A stretch of DNA of 64,000 bases, from IMG/VR virus record IMGVR_UViG_3300042502_000941, positions 1 through 64,000 of that record; one strand, written 5' to 3'. Shown in pieces: positions 4,093 to 8,643 of the stretch (positions are counted from its first letter, which is position 1; every line of letters begins with the position of its first letter). The translations under genes were made by a program, and so were the position numbers. This DNA is from a virus. A model generated the notes under the pieces. That model saw nothing but the letters and a program-made list of their open reading frames with translations. It was not told where the DNA came from and did not search any database.

Positions 4093-5322
4093 TTAGTGGA
4101 TTAATAACCAAGTACCCACTACATCTGCTCTATTTGCACTATCGTCGCCGTCACCTGGTTTAACTATAACATTCCACTTTGGTTTATCTCCCACAGGAAT
4201 TTTCATCATTTCATCGTAGGTAATGACACTGTCTTCAGAAACATTATACTTTAATGCTAACTTTTTCTTTAAAATATCAATAGCGGATGGGGATTTATAA
4301 ACCAACTTTTTAATTGTTTTATTTGGCTTATCTGGATCTGGTACTTCTTCTCTATCAACTAAATCAGCAAACATTTGCTTTGGTACTACAGTTGAATGTT
4401 TAGTTGTTTTAAAATCGACTTGTTTTTCTTGATCAGGTTTTGCACCCGCACTAAAATTCATCTTGAAATTGACTGGTTTATCACCTTTAGCCACATCTGC
4501 CATTTTAGTATAAGCATAAAAGTCTACGTTGGGAAATGTTTTTGCAACACTATATGCTAGGTTTACATAATCAGGACTAAAGAAATCGCCTGAATCATGC
4601 CATCTAATCACAGTTTTTACATTTTTCTTTGAATTTTTTTCAACTGCTGCACGAATTTCGTTTGATAACATATTTTTATAACCATCCGGATCGTTCAACA
4701 AAAAGTTAAGTTGTCTTGTTTGCGATGTGTTAACTGGTACATATTGTACATAACCGCCTTTTTTAGCATAACAATAAACTTTGCATGCACCTGCGCCTGG
4801 ACACGTATTTATGATAACAAATTTTTGATTCTTTTCGTCATAACCAAGTCCTTGTAAAGCTGGCAATCCTATATTATAAAACTGAGTACTTTCACCGCCA
4901 CTGTGTGAAATTTTTTCATTTTGTTTTAAAATCTTATCAGGACGTGTGGTGATATGGGTTTTTAGTTTGTTTAAATCAAACCTACGGCCACTTGGATCTA
5001 CAATTTGTATCTCTCTGGCAAGCTTTGGATGTACATATGGATACTTGAATTTATCAGTTGGATCTTTTGTAGTAGTATACTTTTGTTTACCTTTTTTATC
5101 CAATTTAGGCAATCCAGTTTTCTTATAAACTGCAGGTTGACCGGCCGATCTGTCTAAATATCCTTGTAATTCATCGGATGGCAATTCTGTGGTGCCAGCG
5201 CCTAACATATCAGCTTCGTCTAATTCTTGTGCAACAAATGAATCTAATGACTGTACAGCCGATGCTGGTAATCCTAGACTTTCATACATTTTAACTTCGG
5301 TTAGCAAATCGATTAATTTCAT
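4093..5322 (-). CDS. GP88-like phage protein (Cys-triad, radical-SAM-like fold)
   Basis: TCPGAGACKVYCYAKKG, IRWHDSGDFFS and FYAYTK match the gene product 88 family. Start placed at ATG 5322 (MKLIDLLTE) rather than TTG 5349. Confidence 0.7.
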   Translation of the reverse strand: MKLIDLLTEVKMYESLGLPASAVQSLDSFVAQELDEADMLGAGTTELPSDELQGYLDRSAGQPAVYKKTGLPKLDKKGKQKYTTTKDPTDKFKYPYVHPKLAREIQIVDPSGRRFDLNKLKTHITTRPDKILKQNEKISHSGGESTQFYNIGLPALQGLGYDEKNQKFVIINTCPGAGACKVYCYAKKGGYVQYVPVNTSQTRQLNFLLNDPDGYKNMLSNEIRAAVEKNSKKNVKTVIRWHDSGDFFSPDYVNLAYSVAKTFPNVDFYAYTKMADVAKGDKPVNFKMNFSAGAKPDQEKQVDFKTTKHSTVVPKQMFADLVDREEVPDPDKPNKTIKKLVYKSPSAIDILKKKLALKYNVSEDSVITYDEMMKIPVGDKPKWNVIVKPGDGDDSANRADVVGTWLLIH

Positions 5323-5390
5323 ATGTGTTTTGTTATTCTTACTTTTCAACTGCCGTTACCTTTTATTACACGGTTATACTTTTCTTTGAG

Positions 5391-5428
5391 TATAAATATC
5401 AGTTTTATTATAAAAAGTAATATTTATA
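5391..5428. promoter_or_regulatory. Divergent pair of putative late promoters (TATTTATA on - at 5391-5398 and on + at 5421-5428)
   Basis: Two back-to-back copies between divergent genes; the + copy lies 4 nt upstream of ATG 5433. Confidence 0.6.
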
Positions 5429-5432
5429 TTAT

Positions 5433-6398
5433 ATGAACTTTAAAAAGCAACTGTTTTATACTATTGTAATTTTGATATTAACTGGATGTATTTCATCAGA
5501 GGTTAAATCAGCAAAGCAAGTTAGTGTGGCACAAGATGCCGTTGCAAAACAAGAAGCCAAAGTAGACAATACAATGGTAGAATTGGAAAAAGTAGAAAAA
5601 GGTAAAATAGTACAAACTTCTTCTTTATCAATTGGTATTCAACATTCGTTAAGTCAAGTAACTAATGCGCCTATACAAGTAGAAACAGCTAAATCTTTGA
5701 ATGAACGAGTAATTTCTATCGTTGGTTCTCCACACATAGATGAAATTAAAAGAATTAAAGCTACAGTTGATCTGCTTAATTCTCAAGTAGCTGAAGAACG
5801 AAAAAAAGGTGATCAATTATTATCACAACGGGACGAAATCATAAACAAATTACAAAAAGAAAAGTCTGCTTTAAAAGAAAAGTATGATGATGAACTTTGG
5901 CAAATGACTGATAAAGCAAAAGAAATTGCAAAAGAAGCAGATCAAAGCAAGGCTACACTTGATACAATGAGTGGTATGTTTGGATTAAATGCTGTATTTT
6001 GGGGTTTAAAAAAGTTCTTTATTAGTGCTTTAACCGCAATTATCATATTTGTTGTAGTATTCGTTATACTTAGAATATTAGCAACAGTACATCCAGCAGC
6101 TGGTGCAGTATTTAGTATATTCAATATGATCGGATCCGGACTATTAAGTTTGGTAAAAGTATTAACTCCACATGCATTTGAAATATCTAACTTTGCTTCA
6201 AAAGACAAAGTTGATGAATATAAGTCCCCACTTACTAAGATAGTTGATGTAATTCAAGAACTCAAAGAAAAGCAAAAAGAATCTCCTGACAGAGTATATC
6301 CATTGACCGAAGTGTTAAAGAGATTTGACAAAGAAATGGACAACTCTGAAAAAGATTTGATTGATGATATCTTGAAAGAACAAAAGTGGACGAAGTGA
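5433..6398 (+). CDS. Lipoprotein with long coiled coil and C-terminal transmembrane segment(s); spanin-like topology
   Basis: MNFKK + hydrophobic stretch + lipobox LTGC (Cys19); helical E/K/Q-rich region to about aa 180; hydrophobic FFISALTAIIIFVVVFVILRILA followed by an amphipathic helix. Confidence 0.55.
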   Translation: MNFKKQLFYTIVILILTGCISSEVKSAKQVSVAQDAVAKQEAKVDNTMVELEKVEKGKIVQTSSLSIGIQHSLSQVTNAPIQVETAKSLNERVISIVGSPHIDEIKRIKATVDLLNSQVAEERKKGDQLLSQRDEIINKLQKEKSALKEKYDDELWQMTDKAKEIAKEADQSKATLDTMSGMFGLNAVFWGLKKFFISALTAIIIFVVVFVILRILATVHPAAGAVFSIFNMIGSGLLSLVKVLTPHAFEISNFASKDKVDEYKSPLTKIVDVIQELKEKQKESPDRVYPLTEVLKRFDKEMDNSEKDLIDDILKEQKWTK

Positions 6399-6467
6399 GA
6401 TAATTAAATATATTTATTATATAATTGTTTTAGGTGTTAAACTCGTTTTAAATAACCAAAAACAAAT

Positions 6468-6857
6468 ATGGACACAAATACTGTACAAGTAATTTCAGAA
6501 AAAGTATTAGAATCAACAGCGCAAGATATGACAGGCAAATATGTCTGGATGTTCTTAGCCGGTTTAGTAATTCTAATATTCAAATCAAGCATTGAAAAGT
6601 TAGCAGCTGCGCTTTTTATGTTTATTGGATCCGATTATAAAGAAGATGACGTTGTATATGTTGATGGTAAACCAGGAAGAATTGTACGTGTAGGTTTAAC
6701 CAAAACGGTATTCTTTATATATGATGTAGTAGATGGTAAGGTTGTAGGTGGCAGTAAATTAGTTATTCAAAATGAAAGATTGGCCGGTCTAAATATAGAA
6801 AAACCACTACCTCAGTTGGATTTGGCTCGTTTCAAAAAAGAAAACAAACAAGACTAA
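6468..6857 (+). CDS. Small membrane protein with MscS-like beta domain
   Basis: TM segment YVWMFLAGLVILIF, then DYKEDDVVYVDGKPGRIVRVGLTKTVF, matching the MscS middle-domain pattern (GD.V.v.g..G.V..Igl..T); lacks the C-terminal cage domain. Confidence 0.55.
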   Translation: MDTNTVQVISEKVLESTAQDMTGKYVWMFLAGLVILIFKSSIEKLAAALFMFIGSDYKEDDVVYVDGKPGRIVRVGLTKTVFFIYDVVDGKVVGGSKLVIQNERLAGLNIEKPLPQLDLARFKKENKQD

Positions 6858-6864
6858 TTTACTT

Positions 6865-8643
6865 ATGGCAATCAATATTTTTACCCACATTAAACGAGGG
6901 TTGTATGATAACGTATACAATTGCATCGAAAAAGAAAAAATAGACGTTAATCAGAGAGATGACGATACCGGCAATCCACCATTGGTTGTTGCAGTAGAAG
7001 AAAATCAAATAGAAATAGTCAAATTGTTATTAAATCGTGGCGCCGATGTAAATGTAAAAGATTGGACAAGCAAAAATACTGCATTAGATATATCTGAACA
7101 AAAAGGGTTTAAACACATTTCAGAATTATTGCAAGGTCGAGGTGCAAAATATAGTAGTGGTAGCAGTTTTCATTTGGCTGCTAAGAATGGTGATATTGTT
7201 TCTATTGAAGAAATGTTGAGTAAAAAACAAGATATCAATGAAGTTGACGCTGGTAAAGGTTGGACAGCACTACACTATGCGGTTAATTATGGACAAAAAC
7301 ATTTGGTTGAATATTTAATTGTTAAAGGTGCTGATGTCAACAAGAAAGATTTCTTAGGTAAAAACAATCCAATAGATGTGTTATCCAATGTTAATAGAGG
7401 TGAAATTGTTAAGTTGTTAAATAAAAATGGCGCTAAATCTGCTGGTGGTGTTAATATTCATTTTTGTGCTGAAACCGGTGATTTTGAAGGTGTACAGTCA
7501 TTTTTTGATAAAGACGGTAAAATTAATGGTAGAGATGAAAAGAATGGATGGATGCCATTACATTACGCCGTTAATGCTAACGATGTTGATATGACGGAGT
7601 TTTTGGTACATTTGGGTGCAAATGTTAATGGTGCAGATTTTAAGGGAGAAATTGCTCCGTTAGACATTGCATTCAAGACAGGCAATGTAGAAATGCAAAG
7701 TTATTTACAAGCCAAAGGTGCTTTAAGAAAGAAGAAACACGATACGGGTGGTAATGGTAAAGATGTAAACATTTATATTACAGATGAAGTTAAGAAACAA
7801 ATTGCGTTATTCATTGAAAAACGCAATCGTGAAGAAGAAGCAATAAAGAAACTAGAAGCAGAACAGACTGCAAAAGAACCAAAAAAGAAAGATGCACCAA
7901 CAAAAAAGATTAACTGGAAAGACTTTTTAAAATTAAAGAATATGCCGGTTGTAGAAAAGAAAGAAGAACAACCAAAGGTTGAAGTACCAAAACCAGTTAA
8001 ACAAATAGTTCGTAAAGTTGACAAGATCGACGTGGAAGTCAAATCAGGACGATTACAATTAGATACTGAACAAGAAGGTTTCATATTCTTTATGGATATT
8101 GTGGCTTACAGTAAAAAAACCACAGATGAACAAAAGAAGGCTTGTAAAGACTTGGGTACACTAGTTAAATCTACAATGCAATATAAAACAGCTAATGCTC
8201 TTGAAAAGTTGATTATATTACCCACCGGAGATGGTATGGTAATGGGATTTTTCACGTATCTAGAAGATGCAATGAATTGTGCCGTTGCTATAGCTAAAGC
8301 AGTAAAAGATAGACCCGACTTACAAATGAGAATGGGTGTACACTGTGGACCTGTAATTCCAATGGAAGATATCAATGGAAATCTTAATATAAGCGGTGAT
8401 GGAATCAATTATGCTCAAAGAGTAATGGATGCGGGTGAAACAAATCATTTATTAGTTAGTTCAGCTGTAATGTTGAAATATGATAGACCAGCATACGTTT
8501 TGGTAAATGATTTGGGGGATGTAATTGTAAAACACGGTGTAATAATGCATTTGTACAGTTTACACGGTACCGAGTTTGGTAACAAAGAATTTCCATCAAG
8601 TAGAGTAAAAAAAGCAGAACCAACAACAAATAAACCATTATGA
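6865..8643 (+). CDS. Ankyrin-repeat protein fused to a class III nucleotidyl (adenylate/guanylate-type) cyclase
   Basis: Ankyrin repeats (GNPPLVVAV, GWTALHYAV, GWMPLHYAV, GADVN) to about aa 290. Cyclase motifs FMDIVAYS (D411), TGDG (D456), MRMGVHCGPV, GINYAQRV (N515, R519), VKHG. Confidence 0.9.
   Translation: MAINIFTHIKRGLYDNVYNCIEKEKIDVNQRDDDTGNPPLVVAVEENQIEIVKLLLNRGADVNVKDWTSKNTALDISEQKGFKHISELLQGRGAKYSSGSSFHLAAKNGDIVSIEEMLSKKQDINEVDAGKGWTALHYAVNYGQKHLVEYLIVKGADVNKKDFLGKNNPIDVLSNVNRGEIVKLLNKNGAKSAGGVNIHFCAETGDFEGVQSFFDKDGKINGRDEKNGWMPLHYAVNANDVDMTEFLVHLGANVNGADFKGEIAPLDIAFKTGNVEMQSYLQAKGALRKKKHDTGGNGKDVNIYITDEVKKQIALFIEKRNREEEAIKKLEAEQTAKEPKKKDAPTKKINWKDFLKLKNMPVVEKKEEQPKVEVPKPVKQIVRKVDKIDVEVKSGRLQLDTEQEGFIFFMDIVAYSKKTTDEQKKACKDLGTLVKSTMQYKTANALEKLIILPTGDGMVMGFFTYLEDAMNCAVAIAKAVKDRPDLQMRMGVHCGPVIPMEDINGNLNISGDGINYAQRVMDAGETNHLLVSSAVMLKYDRPAYVLVNDLGDVIVKHGVIMHLYSLHGTEFGNKEFPSSRVKKAEPTTNKPL

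What the first reader, a model, noticed from the sequence alone, without database searches (positions are those of the whole stretch)
8077..8600. Cyclase has an intact catalytic core but non-canonical base-specificity residues
Seen: metal-binding D411 and D456 and transition-state N515 and R519 are present. By hand alignment, the positions that are Lys/Asp in adenylate cyclases and Glu/Cys in guanylate cyclases are Leu452 (LPTGDG) and Asn508. Established: these positions set base selectivity, and Pycsar enzymes making cUMP or cCMP are class III cyclases with altered pockets. Inference: the product may be neither cAMP nor cGMP, or could be made from a modified nucleotide.
Basis: partly seen in the sequence, partly recalled or inferred. 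Interest (0 to 1): 0.7.

Follow-up and report, generated by a model that had tools for sequence, protein, structure and literature searches.

The report
Phage ankyrin-fused nucleotide cyclase, Leu/Asn pocket
A large uncultured phage carries a well-conserved gene joining ankyrin repeats to an apparently working cyclic-nucleotide-making enzyme whose two "base-choosing" residues are unusual, but they are the norm for a big untested enzyme subfamily, so its product stays unknown.

Summary
ORF 6865-8643 (+), 592 aa, has ankyrin repeats, a charged linker and a class III cyclase domain. That domain has D411, D456, N515 and R519, with Leu452 and Asn508 where adenylate cyclases have Lys/Asp.

The fold is a canonical class III cyclase: pLDDT 92 and Z about 20 to Rv1264, Ma1120 and Rv1900c.

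Leu/Asn is not a phage oddity. Among the query plus its 150 best relatives, Leu is in 132 of 151 and Asn in 147 of 151. These belong to a large uncharacterised subfamily, mostly in soil Verrucomicrobiota and Acidobacteriota.

The gene is under strong purifying selection in 58 related viral contigs.

Nothing ties it to Pycsar: no PADLOC cyclase match, no cNMP-binding partner, different pocket residues. The Mom neighbour is not a conserved partner.

New here: seven related phages and one complete 296-kb genome also carry a canonical Lys/Thr adenylate cyclase, in the same cassette in the seven. This hints weakly at non-redundant roles.

The product cannot be inferred; a purine cNMP is likeliest. 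This scan has reported the same gene family before on other DNA, with the same verdict.

The parts
6865..8643 (+). Ankyrin-cyclase gene, 592 aa plus stop
   Evidence: ORF list and translation. Related viral loci at 73-98% identity: 51 of the 57 listed hold a full-length ORF, 5 are cut by contig ends, and L016 is interrupted before residue 151. dN/dS is 0.03-0.18 in all three regions.
6865..7734 (+). Ankyrin-repeat region, residues 1-290 (about nine helix pairs in the model)
   Evidence: Pfam Ank_2 5.7e-34 and Ank 7.7e-33. The full-length AF2 model shows paired helices from residue 5 to 283, pLDDT mostly 70-94.
7735..8064 (+). Lys/Glu-rich linker, residues 291-400: one long helix (307-337), then a low-confidence stretch
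   Evidence: Full-length model: helix 307-337; pLDDT below 50 at 290-306, 337-348 and 360-395. The linker has the highest dN of the three regions but still dN/dS 0.06-0.18.
8065..8604 (+). Class III nucleotide cyclase catalytic domain, residues 401-580
   Evidence: AF2 domain model: pLDDT 92.2, pTM 0.87. Foldseek top hits are 3et6, 1ybt and 5oyh at E about 1e-11. VIA-align gives Z 19-20 to 1y10, 3et6, 4wp9 and 1ybu. A profile of the family hits 3mr7 at 7.1e-12 and 1ybt at 2.3e-9. PF00211 scores 23.4 bits.
8095..8097 (+). D411, first metal-binding Asp (FFMDIV)
   Evidence: Aligned to the FADIVGF Asp of 5o5k. Present in 151/151.
8218..8220 (+). L452, at the position of the adenine-selecting Lys or guanine-selecting Glu (four residues before D456)
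   Evidence: with the gap caveat. Leu in 132/151, Ile 15, Arg 2, Val 2. Leu in 16/16 phage orthologues and in the second phage lineage.
8230..8232 (+). D456, second metal-binding Asp (TGDG)
   Evidence: Present in 151/151.
8386..8388 (+). N508, at the position of the adenylate-cyclase Asp/Thr or guanylate-cyclase Cys (seven residues before N515)
   Evidence: Asn in 147/151, Asp 3, Thr 1. Asn in 16/16 orthologues and in the second lineage.
8407..8421 (+). N515 to R519 (NYAQR), the transition-state Asn and Arg
   Evidence: N in 149/151 and R in 151/151.
6468..6857 (+). Context: 129-aa small membrane protein with a weak MscS beta-domain match. It ends 8 nt before the cyclase start codon.
   Evidence: PF00924 E 0.044, below the cut-off. 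It lies directly upstream of the cyclase in most related loci. In G001 its 88% homologue sits two genes before the canonical cyclase instead.
5433..6398 (+). Context: 321-aa coiled-coil/membrane protein, first gene of the + strand island
   Evidence: No Pfam family above cut-off. It keeps its place upstream in relatives down to 73% identity. A 77% homologue lies in G001 next to the canonical cyclase.
8640..8852 (+). Context: 70-aa ORF whose ATG overlaps the cyclase stop codon (ATGA)
   Evidence: Sequence. Found at the same place in 44 of 58 related loci at 64-100% identity. No PHROG match.

Best explanation
The gene encodes a working class III nucleotide cyclase carried by a large T4-like phage.

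Shown:
- The C-terminal 180 residues have the class III fold.
- Every residue used for catalysis is present: two metal Asp, and the transition-state Asn and Arg. R489 and K556 are also invariant; from recall, these correspond to the phosphate-binding Arg and Lys of other class III enzymes.
- Leu452 and Asn508 are the fixed signature of a large, uncharacterised subfamily whose nearest solved relatives are mycobacterial-type soluble adenylate cyclases.
- The whole protein is under strong purifying selection in many phages.

Inferred:
- It acts as a head-to-tail homodimer that converts an NTP into a 3',5'-cyclic NMP inside the infected cell.
- The ankyrin domain binds a host or phage protein that places or switches the enzyme.
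- With a hydrophobic Leu and an amide Asn in place of the charged pair, base choice must rest on Asn508 and pocket shape. The likeliest product is a purine cNMP: cAMP, possibly with relaxed ATP/GTP discrimination.
- The signal would act on host receptors, because the phage encodes no cNMP-binding domain.
For: - Fold and catalytic residues.
- Subfamily signature: L452 in 132/151 and N508 in 147/151; invariant D411, G455-D456-G457, R489, G491, G495, D502, G511, R519, M521, H528, G551, K556 and H557.
- Subfamily size: 4552 representatives at E<=1e-3 and 516 at E<=1e-30.
- Family assignment of relatives: 71 of 74 match PF00211, with TPR fusions in 27 and protein-kinase fusions in 16.
- Selection: dN/dS in the cyclase region is 0.032-0.082 where dS could be estimated, and 12 key residues are identical in 16/16 sequences.
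- A second phage lineage with 492-526-aa ankyrin-cyclases keeps ILPTGDG, N508, N515 and R519. It groups with the window's lineage (12-row side, SH-aLRT 93).
- Closest solved sequences are adenylate cyclases: 3mr7 (Lys/Asp), Rv1900c (Asn at the Lys position in the alignment) and Ma1120.
- A class III cyclase with a Gln/Asn pair is reported to make cAMP with guanylate cyclase side activity (passage in bioRxiv 10.1101/2024.03.06.583649; the primary paper on Rv0386 is recalled, not seen).
- No PF00027 domain in G000, G001 (100% complete), G002 or G003.
Against: - No member of the Leu/Asn subfamily has a measured product in any paper my searches found, so the purine call is an extrapolation from 18-26% identical enzymes.
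- The strict conservation of Leu and Asn argues for a purposeful pocket rather than a relaxed one.
- Seven related phage loci and the complete genome G001 also encode a canonical Lys/Thr adenylate cyclase. In the seven loci it lies in the same cassette. If both enzymes made cAMP, that would be partly redundant.
- Dimer formation and the real geometry of the pocket were not modelled.
- The Pfam match is marginal.
Confidence: 0.5

Rival explanations
1. One reading: the Leu/Asn pocket selects a different substrate, so the enzyme makes a signal other than cAMP. This could be cGMP alone, a cyclic pyrimidine (cUMP or cCMP), or another nucleotide product. The phage would use this as a second signal that does not overlap with cAMP.
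For: - Both base-selecting positions differ from every characterised adenylate or guanylate pair and are held fixed across the subfamily.
- Further family-specific invariant residues, D502 and N504, sit in the hairpin next to the pocket.
- A canonical Lys/Thr adenylate cyclase lies in the same cassette directly downstream of the ankyrin-cyclase in L024, L026, L040, L043, L045, L046 and L047, and elsewhere in the complete genome G001. This fits two different products.
- Asn side chains read uracil in PycTIR and in some CD-NTases (PMC11224242 discussion).
- Changes in a few pocket residues switch the product among Pycsar-related cyclases (bioRxiv 10.64898/2026.08.12.744502 passages).
Against: - No sequence tie to PycC: no PADLOC cyclase model matches at E<=1. 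PDB chain 7r65 (from recall, a PycC) is not hit at E<=10 by this domain, though the canonical phage cyclase does hit it.
- The bulky residues said to narrow the pocket for pyrimidines (Tyr50/Asp94/Arg97 in BcPycC, Arg142/Gln144 in EaPycC) have no counterpart at the matching offsets here.
- No dedicated receptor is encoded by the phage.
- Two cyclases can differ in regulation only.
- Solved class IIIc relatives without the Lys are annotated as adenylate cyclases.
Confidence: 0.3
2. The domain does not act as a cyclase in vivo. It would be a nucleotide-binding or scaffold module, or would carry out another nucleotidyl-transfer reaction. The ankyrin part would then do the real work, for example sequestering a host protein.
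For: - The Pfam match is marginal and covers only half of the domain.
- Base-binding residues are non-canonical.
- No receptor or phosphodiesterase is encoded in the window.
- No activity has been reported for any family member.
Against: - All catalytic residues are invariant across 151 sequences, including both metal Asp, Asn, Arg and the invariant R489 and K556. Such conservation is hard to explain without catalysis.
- dN/dS in the cyclase region is as low as or lower than in the ankyrin region.
- The fold matches active cyclases at Z about 20 over the whole domain.
Confidence: 0.1
3. The enzyme cyclises a modified nucleotide made by the phage. This reading was suggested by the Mom-like DNA-modification gene next door.
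For: A Mom-family gene (PF25680, 1.8e-44) starts 247 nt after the cyclase stop codon in the window.
Against: - The adjacency is not conserved. Mom follows directly in 38 of 58 loci. It is pushed about 3 kb away by inserted genes in five, follows at +901 in one, and is not seen within the downstream flank held in twelve, eight of these with about 8 kb held (L005, L006, L048, L051-L054, L058).
- In G001 the cyclase lies among unrelated genes.
- Mom has its own consensus promoter.
- From established knowledge of phage Mu, Mom acts on DNA, not on the NTP pool (recalled).
Confidence: 0.03

Closest known systems
Mycobacterium tuberculosis Rv1900c (LipJ) cyclase homology domain, PDB 1ybt/1ybu
   Same: - Class III fold: Z 19.2-19.5, rmsd 2.3-2.6 over 158-166 residues; Foldseek 1.7e-11; profile E 2.3e-9.
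- Soluble homodimer-type domain.
- It also lacks the Lys: Asn sits four residues before the GDG Asp in the alignment.
- A similar hairpin (VRD...TDVAG against the family consensus VaDiN...NVAG).
   Different: - Only 22-23% identical.
- It keeps the Asp at the second position, where the phage enzyme has Asn.
- Its transition-state Asn position reads His in the alignment (VHIGAR).
- It is fused to an alpha/beta hydrolase, not to ankyrin repeats.
- Its measured adenylate cyclase activity is recalled, not read here (PMC549627 is not held).
Ruegeria (Silicibacter) pomeroyi cyclase, PDB 3mr7
   Same: Best sequence match among solved structures: phmmer 2.7e-4, family profile 7.1e-12 over profile positions 26-182, Z 18.5 at 26% identity. 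It shares TGDGM, the C-A pair of the following helix, RxGIxxG and NxAxR.
   Different: It has the canonical Lys and Asp at the two selecting positions. It is a structural-genomics entry, and no activity data were seen.
Mycobacterium avium Ma1120 (PDB 4wp9, 5d0e and others) and Rv1264 (1y10/1y11)
   Same: Top structural matches, Z 19.6-20.3. Ma1120 shows that the residues at these two positions tune the ATP/GTP preference (PMC4215837: abstract, Introduction and Discussion read).
   Different: Ma1120 has Lys101/Asp157. Identity is 14-20%. Neither has an ankyrin fusion, and both are bacterial rather than phage proteins.
Mycobacterial cyclase with a Gln/Asn pair (Rv0386 type)
   Same: It has Asn at the second selecting position and no Lys at the first. 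It is reported to make cAMP with a guanylate cyclase side activity that depends on the Gln/Asn pair (passage in bioRxiv 10.1101/2024.03.06.583649).
   Different: The first position is polar Gln, not Leu. Its sequence was not compared here because none was available from a tool. The primary paper was not seen.
Pycsar pyrimidine cyclases (PycC) and the cGMP-making PucC
   Same: Same superfamily and dimeric scaffold. They show that changes in pocket residues change the product (PMC11224242 passages; bioRxiv 10.64898/2026.08.12.744502 passages).
   Different: - No PADLOC cyclase match.
- No adjacent cNMP-binding TM or TIR effector.
- Pocket residues differ at the matching offsets.
- Encoded by a phage, not in a bacterial defence operon.
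- Fused to ankyrin repeats.
Canonical class IIIb adenylate cyclase of related phages (479 aa; G001:C1:273399-274838 and L024/L026/L040/L043/L045/L046/L047)
   Same: Phage-borne class III cyclase. In the seven listed loci it lies in the same gene island, next to the same two membrane-protein genes.
   Different: - Strong PF00211 match, 5.8e-27.
- Best solved relative is P. aeruginosa CyaB 3r5g, 5e-30, with Lys (DKFIGD) and Thr (YTVTGD) at the selecting positions.
- N-terminal membrane region with a weak HAMP match; no ankyrin repeats.
- Absent from the window.

Membership tests
Class III nucleotidyl cyclase (Pfam PF00211) | Match to the family model above the curated cut-off | tested here: met
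   23.4 bits against a cut-off of 21.9, covering residues 479-567 only. 25.3 bits in the six-frame search. 71 of 74 close relatives match, best 4e-30. The match is marginal for this protein taken alone.
Class III nucleotidyl cyclase (Pfam PF00211) | Cyclase catalytic fold over the whole domain | tested here: met
   AF2 pLDDT 92.2. Foldseek gives 189 PDB matches at E<=0.001, and the listed top ranks are all cyclases. VIA-align Z is 17.3-20.3 for the 50 entries shown, all cyclases, spanning model residues 10-186.
Class III nucleotidyl cyclase (Pfam PF00211) | Two metal-binding Asp residues | tested here: met
   D411 and D456, each in 151/151.
Class III nucleotidyl cyclase (Pfam PF00211) | Transition-state Asn and Arg (NxxxR) | tested here: met
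   N515 and R519, in 149/151 and 151/151.
Class III nucleotidyl cyclase (Pfam PF00211) | Base-selecting pair of a characterised type (Lys with Asp or Thr for ATP; Glu with Cys/Ser/Thr/Gly for GTP) | tested here: not met
   Leu452 and Asn508. No Lys, Glu, Asp or Cys lies within one residue of either position.
Class III nucleotidyl cyclase (Pfam PF00211) | Head-to-tail dimer with active sites at the interface | not testable with these tools
   Only single chains could be predicted.
Class III nucleotidyl cyclase (Pfam PF00211) | Measured NTP cyclase activity | not testable with these tools
   This needs an enzyme assay. No paper on this subfamily was found.
Pycsar pyrimidine cyclase (PycC) | Sequence match to defence-system cyclase models or solved PycC | tested here: not met
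   PADLOC at E<=1 returned only three families, all on the ankyrin part. That PADLOC holds PycC models is recalled. phmmer against PDB at E<=10 lists nine sequences, none of them 7r65. 7r65 is in the library, since the canonical phage cyclase hits it at 8.2e-5. PycC structures are not among the 50 entries shown by VIA-align; that alone is inconclusive.
Pycsar pyrimidine cyclase (PycC) | Operon partner with a cyclic-nucleotide-binding domain fused to a TM or TIR effector | tested here: not met
   No PF00027 match in the two upstream membrane proteins or the other neighbours at E<=0.1. None in any of four phage records, including the complete G001.
Pycsar pyrimidine cyclase (PycC) | Pyrimidine-selecting pocket residues (EaPycC F100/R142/Q144; BcPycC Y50/D94/R97) | tested here: inconclusive
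   By offset from the metal Asp residues, the EaPycC positions read F409, L452 and T454 here, so the Arg and Gln are absent. No residue-level alignment to a PycC could be made, and the paper's Supplementary Fig. 2d could not be seen.
DUF2652 cyclase-like proteins (PMC4886424) | Match to the DUF2652 model | tested here: not met
   DUF2652 is not among the ten Pfam families found at E<=1. Passages of the paper were read.
Leu/Asn ('LPTGDG...N') subfamily of class III cyclases (defined here, uncharacterised) | Full-domain similarity plus the shared invariant set (DIVxYS, LPTGDG, RMG, DIN, NxSG/NVAG, GINxAQRVMD, H528, VKHG) | tested here: met
   Best non-phage representatives are 45-50% identical at E 1e-46 to 1e-36 over residues 21-200 of the 208-aa query. 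All invariant columns are kept by the phage protein. The phage proteins form one side of a branch within the tree of 98 rows.

The most novel reading that the evidence does not exclude
The Leu/Asn subfamily makes a cyclic nucleotide that is neither cAMP nor cGMP. Large aquatic phages deploy it through an ankyrin-targeted enzyme. In some phages it works side by side with a canonical adenylate cyclase and a possible HD phosphohydrolase, as a two-signal programme that takes over or mutes host signalling. This would add a new product class to class III cyclases outside Pycsar. It would also assign a function to hundreds of orphan cyclases in soil Verrucomicrobiota and Acidobacteriota.
Probability: 0.2. 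Interest if true: 0.8.

Novelty: new variant of a known kind. Interest (0 to 1): 0.45.

Why it matters
Class III cyclases are usually annotated as adenylate cyclases by default. Here a subfamily with at least 516 representative clusters, plus two lineages of phage ankyrin fusions, fixes a Leu/Asn pair where every characterised enzyme has a polar or charged pair. Its product is therefore an open and directly testable question.

A phage that brings its own cyclase, and in some relatives two different ones, into the host would be a clear case of viral control of second-messenger signalling. One enzyme assay with four NTPs would settle the chemistry for the whole subfamily.

If the answer is cAMP, the finding is an ordinary accessory gene with an unusual fusion.

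Tried and rejected
- **Pycsar membership:** rejected.
- **DUF2652 cyclase-like family:** a different family.
- **Mom linkage or a modified-nucleotide substrate:** the adjacency is not conserved.
- **Phage-encoded receptor or anti-Pycsar-type nuclease:** no PF00027 and no PF12706 in G000-G003. Three of these four records are incomplete.
- **Isolated phage genomes:** tblastn of the whole protein found 12 records, all matching the ankyrin part only and none covering the cyclase domain.
- **Conserved partners of the bacterial homologues:** among 241 neighbouring ORFs of 75 loci, the only large cluster (27 ORFs in 20 loci) looks like tandem paralogues. I did not confirm this by a family search, and no recurrent receptor-like neighbour stood out.
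- **ESM Atlas:** returned only cyclase clusters and added nothing.
- **NCBIfam:** gave only sub-threshold matches, LipJ at 30.5 bits against a cut-off of 800.
- **HD-motif 258-aa ORF of relatives:** no Pfam family at E<=1 and no meaningful PDB match. The only hit is a weak PHROG 'phosphohydrolase' match at E 0.0032, so calling it a phosphodiesterase is only a lead.
- **Literature:** six searches found no paper on a Leu/Asn-type class III cyclase or on a phage ankyrin-cyclase. Subscription journals are largely not held. PMC2447327 gave no passages for my terms.
- **Full-length model:** pTM 0.38, so it says nothing about contacts between the ankyrin and cyclase parts.
- **Tree:** it used the window, 7 phage loci and the first 90 of the 150 representatives. 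The other 60 (P0092-P0151) were left out, and support is SH-aLRT only.
- **Bias in the genome search:** the genome-contig scan used peptide patterns that include the LPTGDGM motif itself, so its taxon spread is biased towards Leu-type members.
Full report
**What is there.** The finding lies in ORF 6865..8643 on the + strand, 592 aa.
- Pfam finds ankyrin repeats in the first half (Ank_2 5.7e-34). It also gives a marginal match to the class III cyclase family: PF00211, 23.4 bits against a cut-off of 21.9, covering residues 479-567 only.
Span 8077-8600 corresponds to residues 405-579.
- The window is part of an 83-kb IMG/VR viral record estimated at 31% complete.
- Its major capsid protein (9723-11561, - strand) is 50% identical to those of Microcystis phage Mel-JY01 and the Flavobacterium 'immuto' phages. 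This is therefore a large T4-like phage of an unknown aquatic host.

**Is the domain a cyclase, and are the positions right?** An AlphaFold2 model of residues 385-592, built on 35 aligned sequences, has pLDDT 92.2 and pTM 0.87.
- Foldseek against the PDB gives only cyclases at the top: 3et6, 1ybt and 5oyh at about 1e-11.
- VIA-align gives Z 17.3-20.3 for the 50 entries shown, all cyclases. The top ones are Rv1264, a Chlamydomonas guanylate cyclase, Ma1120, RhGC and Rv1900c.
- phmmer against PDB sequences aligns IILPTGDGMV with IVKTTGDGML of 3mr7 without a gap, and NISGDGINYAQR with DIFGDAVNVAAR. L452 therefore sits on the Lys and N508 on the Asp.
- A profile of the family hits 3mr7 at 7.1e-12 and Rv1900c at 2.3e-9, and aligns N508 with the Asp of Rv1900c.
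- In two profile alignments HMMER puts a one-residue gap at L452. The conclusion survives a shift of one residue either way, because 450-454 are I-I-L-P-T and 505-510 are G-N-L-N-I-S.

**How unusual is Leu/Asn?** It is not unusual within this domain's own family.
- An exhaustive HMMER search of 1.84 billion representatives with the 208-aa domain found 4552 proteins at E<=1e-3, 1997 at E<=1e-10 and 516 at E<=1e-30.
- I aligned the query with the best 150. Position 452 is Leu in 132, Ile in 15, Arg in 2 and Val in 2. Position 508 is Asn in 147, Asp in 3 and Thr in 1.
- D411, D456 and R519 are invariant, and N515 is present in 149. A further set is also invariant: G455, G457, R489, G491, G495, D502, G511, M521, H528, G551, K556 and H557.
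- Of 74 relatives scanned, 71 match PF00211. Many are fused to TPR repeats (TPR_2 in 27) or to Ser/Thr kinase domains (16).
The 79 best loci are almost all from soil Verrucomicrobiota (Chthoniobacterales, Udaeobacter) and Acidobacteriota, often several per genome. The seed patterns contain the LPTGDGM motif, so this spread is biased.
- The commonest bacterial form is about 790-810 aa with the cyclase domain at the N-terminus.
- I found no paper that characterises any member. The DUF2652 'cyclase-like' family is a different family.

**Is the phage gene functional?** The search for related loci returned 58 viral loci encoding a close relative.
- 57 of them were listed by my BLAST. 51 hold a full-length ORF at 73-98% identity, five are cut by contig ends, and one (L016) is interrupted before residue 151.
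- Pairwise dN/dS against eight orthologues is 0.04-0.08 for the ankyrin part, 0.06-0.18 for the linker and 0.03-0.08 for the cyclase part, wherever dS could be estimated.
- Twelve key residues are identical in all 16 sequences compared.
- A second, more distant lineage of phage ankyrin-cyclases (492-526 aa) includes Tara Oceans sequences and has 10 viral loci. It is about 35% identical overall and keeps ILPTGDG, N508, N515 and R519.
- In a tree of 98 domain sequences the two phage lineages share one side of a branch, SH-aLRT 93. That side has twelve rows, one of which is a 187-aa fragment. One origin of the fusion is therefore not excluded.
- The full-length model shows about nine helix pairs (residues 5-283), a long helix at 307-337, a low-confidence linker and the cyclase domain. 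It gives no reliable inter-domain contact (pTM 0.38).

**Does it look like Pycsar, or like a user of modified nucleotides?**
- PADLOC models match only the ankyrin part.
- The two upstream membrane proteins and the other neighbours have no cNMP-binding domain. Neither PF00027 nor the MBL-fold family PF12706 is found in G000 or three related records, one of them 296 kb and 100% complete by CheckV.
- In EaPycC the CTP-selecting residues are F100, R142 and Q144 beside metal Asp D102 and D146. In BcPycC the UTP-selecting residues are Y50, D94 and R97 (PMC11224242 passages; the supplementary figure was not seen). At the same offsets the phage protein has F409, L452 and T454. The Phe is common to class III enzymes, while the Arg and Gln are missing.
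- The Mom-family gene that follows in the window (PF25680, 1.8e-44) follows directly in 38 of 58 loci. It is displaced by inserted genes in seven, follows at +901 in one, and is not seen within the downstream flank held in ten more, eight of these with about 8 kb held. It also has its own perfect sigma-70 consensus. I see no support for a modified substrate.

**A point that bears on the product.** Searching related records for PF00211 revealed a second cyclase in the complete genome G001.
- It is 479 aa with a strong Pfam match, 5.8e-27. Its best solved relative is P. aeruginosa CyaB (3r5g, 5e-30). It has Lys and Thr at the two selecting positions, so it is a canonical class IIIb adenylate cyclase.
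- In G001 it lies just after homologues of the window's 321-aa and 129-aa membrane proteins (77% and 88% identity) and a 213-aa ORF. It is followed by a 258-aa ORF with His-Asp motifs. The ankyrin-cyclase sits 15 kb upstream.
- In L024, L026, L043, L045 and L046 the order is ankyrin-cyclase, 213-aa ORF, canonical cyclase, 258-aa ORF, Mom. The two membrane-protein genes lie upstream wherever that flank is held. L040 and L047 show the same order but no Mom within the flank held. L035 shows the start of the same insert, and L008 has only the 258-aa ORF.
- The window's own phage lacks the insert. Only the 70-aa coupled ORF lies between the cyclase and Mom.
- Two cyclases with different pockets side by side fit different products, but they fit different regulation equally well.

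**Mechanism and odds.** I take the protein to be an active cyclase, at about 0.8.
- Its Leu/Asn pocket cannot form the two hydrogen bonds that fix adenine in Lys/Asp enzymes. That role of Lys and Asp is described in the PMC4215837 Discussion.
- Asn508 can donate and accept hydrogen bonds, so adenine N6, guanine O6 and uracil N3/O4 are all possible partners. This is my inference.
- The nearest solved relatives are adenylate cyclases, and one of them lacks the Lys. A Gln/Asn enzyme is reported to make cAMP with a cGMP side activity (secondary passage). I therefore put a purine product, chiefly cAMP, at about 0.5 overall, a distinct product at about 0.3, no cyclase activity at about 0.1 and a modified substrate at about 0.03.
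- The ankyrin domain most likely binds a host or phage protein. The recurring 129-aa MscS-like protein and the 70-aa coupled ORF are candidate partners, but nothing shows that they sense a nucleotide.

**Comparison and novelty.** The protein works like a soluble class III cyclase. It meets every defining feature that could be tested except the canonical base-selecting pair.
- It belongs to a coherent, uncharacterised Leu/Asn subfamily, and it is not a Pycsar cyclase.
- JGI already labels close relatives 'ankyrin repeat protein/class 3 adenylate cyclase'.
- This scan has reported the same gene family on other DNA several times, and follow-ups reached the same verdict. I consulted those notes after my own analysis, and they did not change it.
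- I rate the finding as a new variant of a known kind, of moderate interest. One four-NTP assay would decide whether it is ordinary (cAMP) or opens a new product class.

Noticed in passing
L024, L026, L040, L043, L045, L046, L047 (and G001:C1:271418-275621 = L154:11418-15621); insertion point corresponds to window 8643-8890: Relatives carry a roughly 2.7-kb insert downstream of the ankyrin-cyclase; in five of the seven loci Mom is seen on its far side. The insert holds a 213-aa ORF, a canonical Lys/Thr class IIIb adenylate cyclase (479 aa, CyaB-like, with an N-terminal membrane region) and a 258-aa ORF with His-Asp motifs. That last ORF has only a weak PHROG phosphohydrolase hit, E 0.0032. The window lacks the insert.
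   Followed up: partly
window 8640-8852 (+): A 70-aa ORF starts with an ATG that overlaps the cyclase stop codon (ATGA). It is at the same place in 44 of 58 related loci at 64-100% identity, so it diverges faster than the cyclase. It has no PHROG match. It may be a translationally coupled partner or regulator.
   Followed up: partly
window 6468-6857 (+); G001:C1:272378-272761; L141:6465-6779, L142:9291-9611, L145:12502-12810: The 129-aa MscS-like membrane protein travels with phage cyclases. It lies directly upstream of the ankyrin-cyclase in most relatives. In G001 it lies next to the canonical cyclase instead. A 33-35% homologue lies within 1-8 kb of the second-lineage ankyrin-cyclases.
   Followed up: partly
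G001:C1:256047-257822 (L048, L152, L153): In the complete 296-kb phage the ankyrin-cyclase is 89% identical to the window's, although the capsid protein is only 71% identical. It sits among unrelated genes (helicase, amidoligase-like, phosphoribosyltransferase-like), far from the capsid gene. The gene appears to move between phage genomes.
   Followed up: partly
window 8856-8883 (+) and 9671-9698 (+): A perfect TTGACA-16-TATAAT consensus ends just before the Mom-like gene. It is the only 12/12 match in 5300-9800, although the total count of promoter-like sites is no higher than in shuffles. A strong terminator-like hairpin (12 pairs plus a T run) follows Mom.
   Followed up: no
window 4093-5349 (-) and the matching places in L009, L017, L021, L025 and others: The GP88-like gene (PF17338, 3.3e-33) is a variable spot. 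Relatives are 56-100% identical over the full length, or keep only a match of about 40 aa where another sequence has taken its place.
   Followed up: no
L016:7284-8624: Among the 57 loci listed, this is the only one whose ankyrin-cyclase ORF is interrupted (it opens only at residue 151) although upstream sequence is present. This could be a sequencing error or a truncated copy.
   Followed up: no
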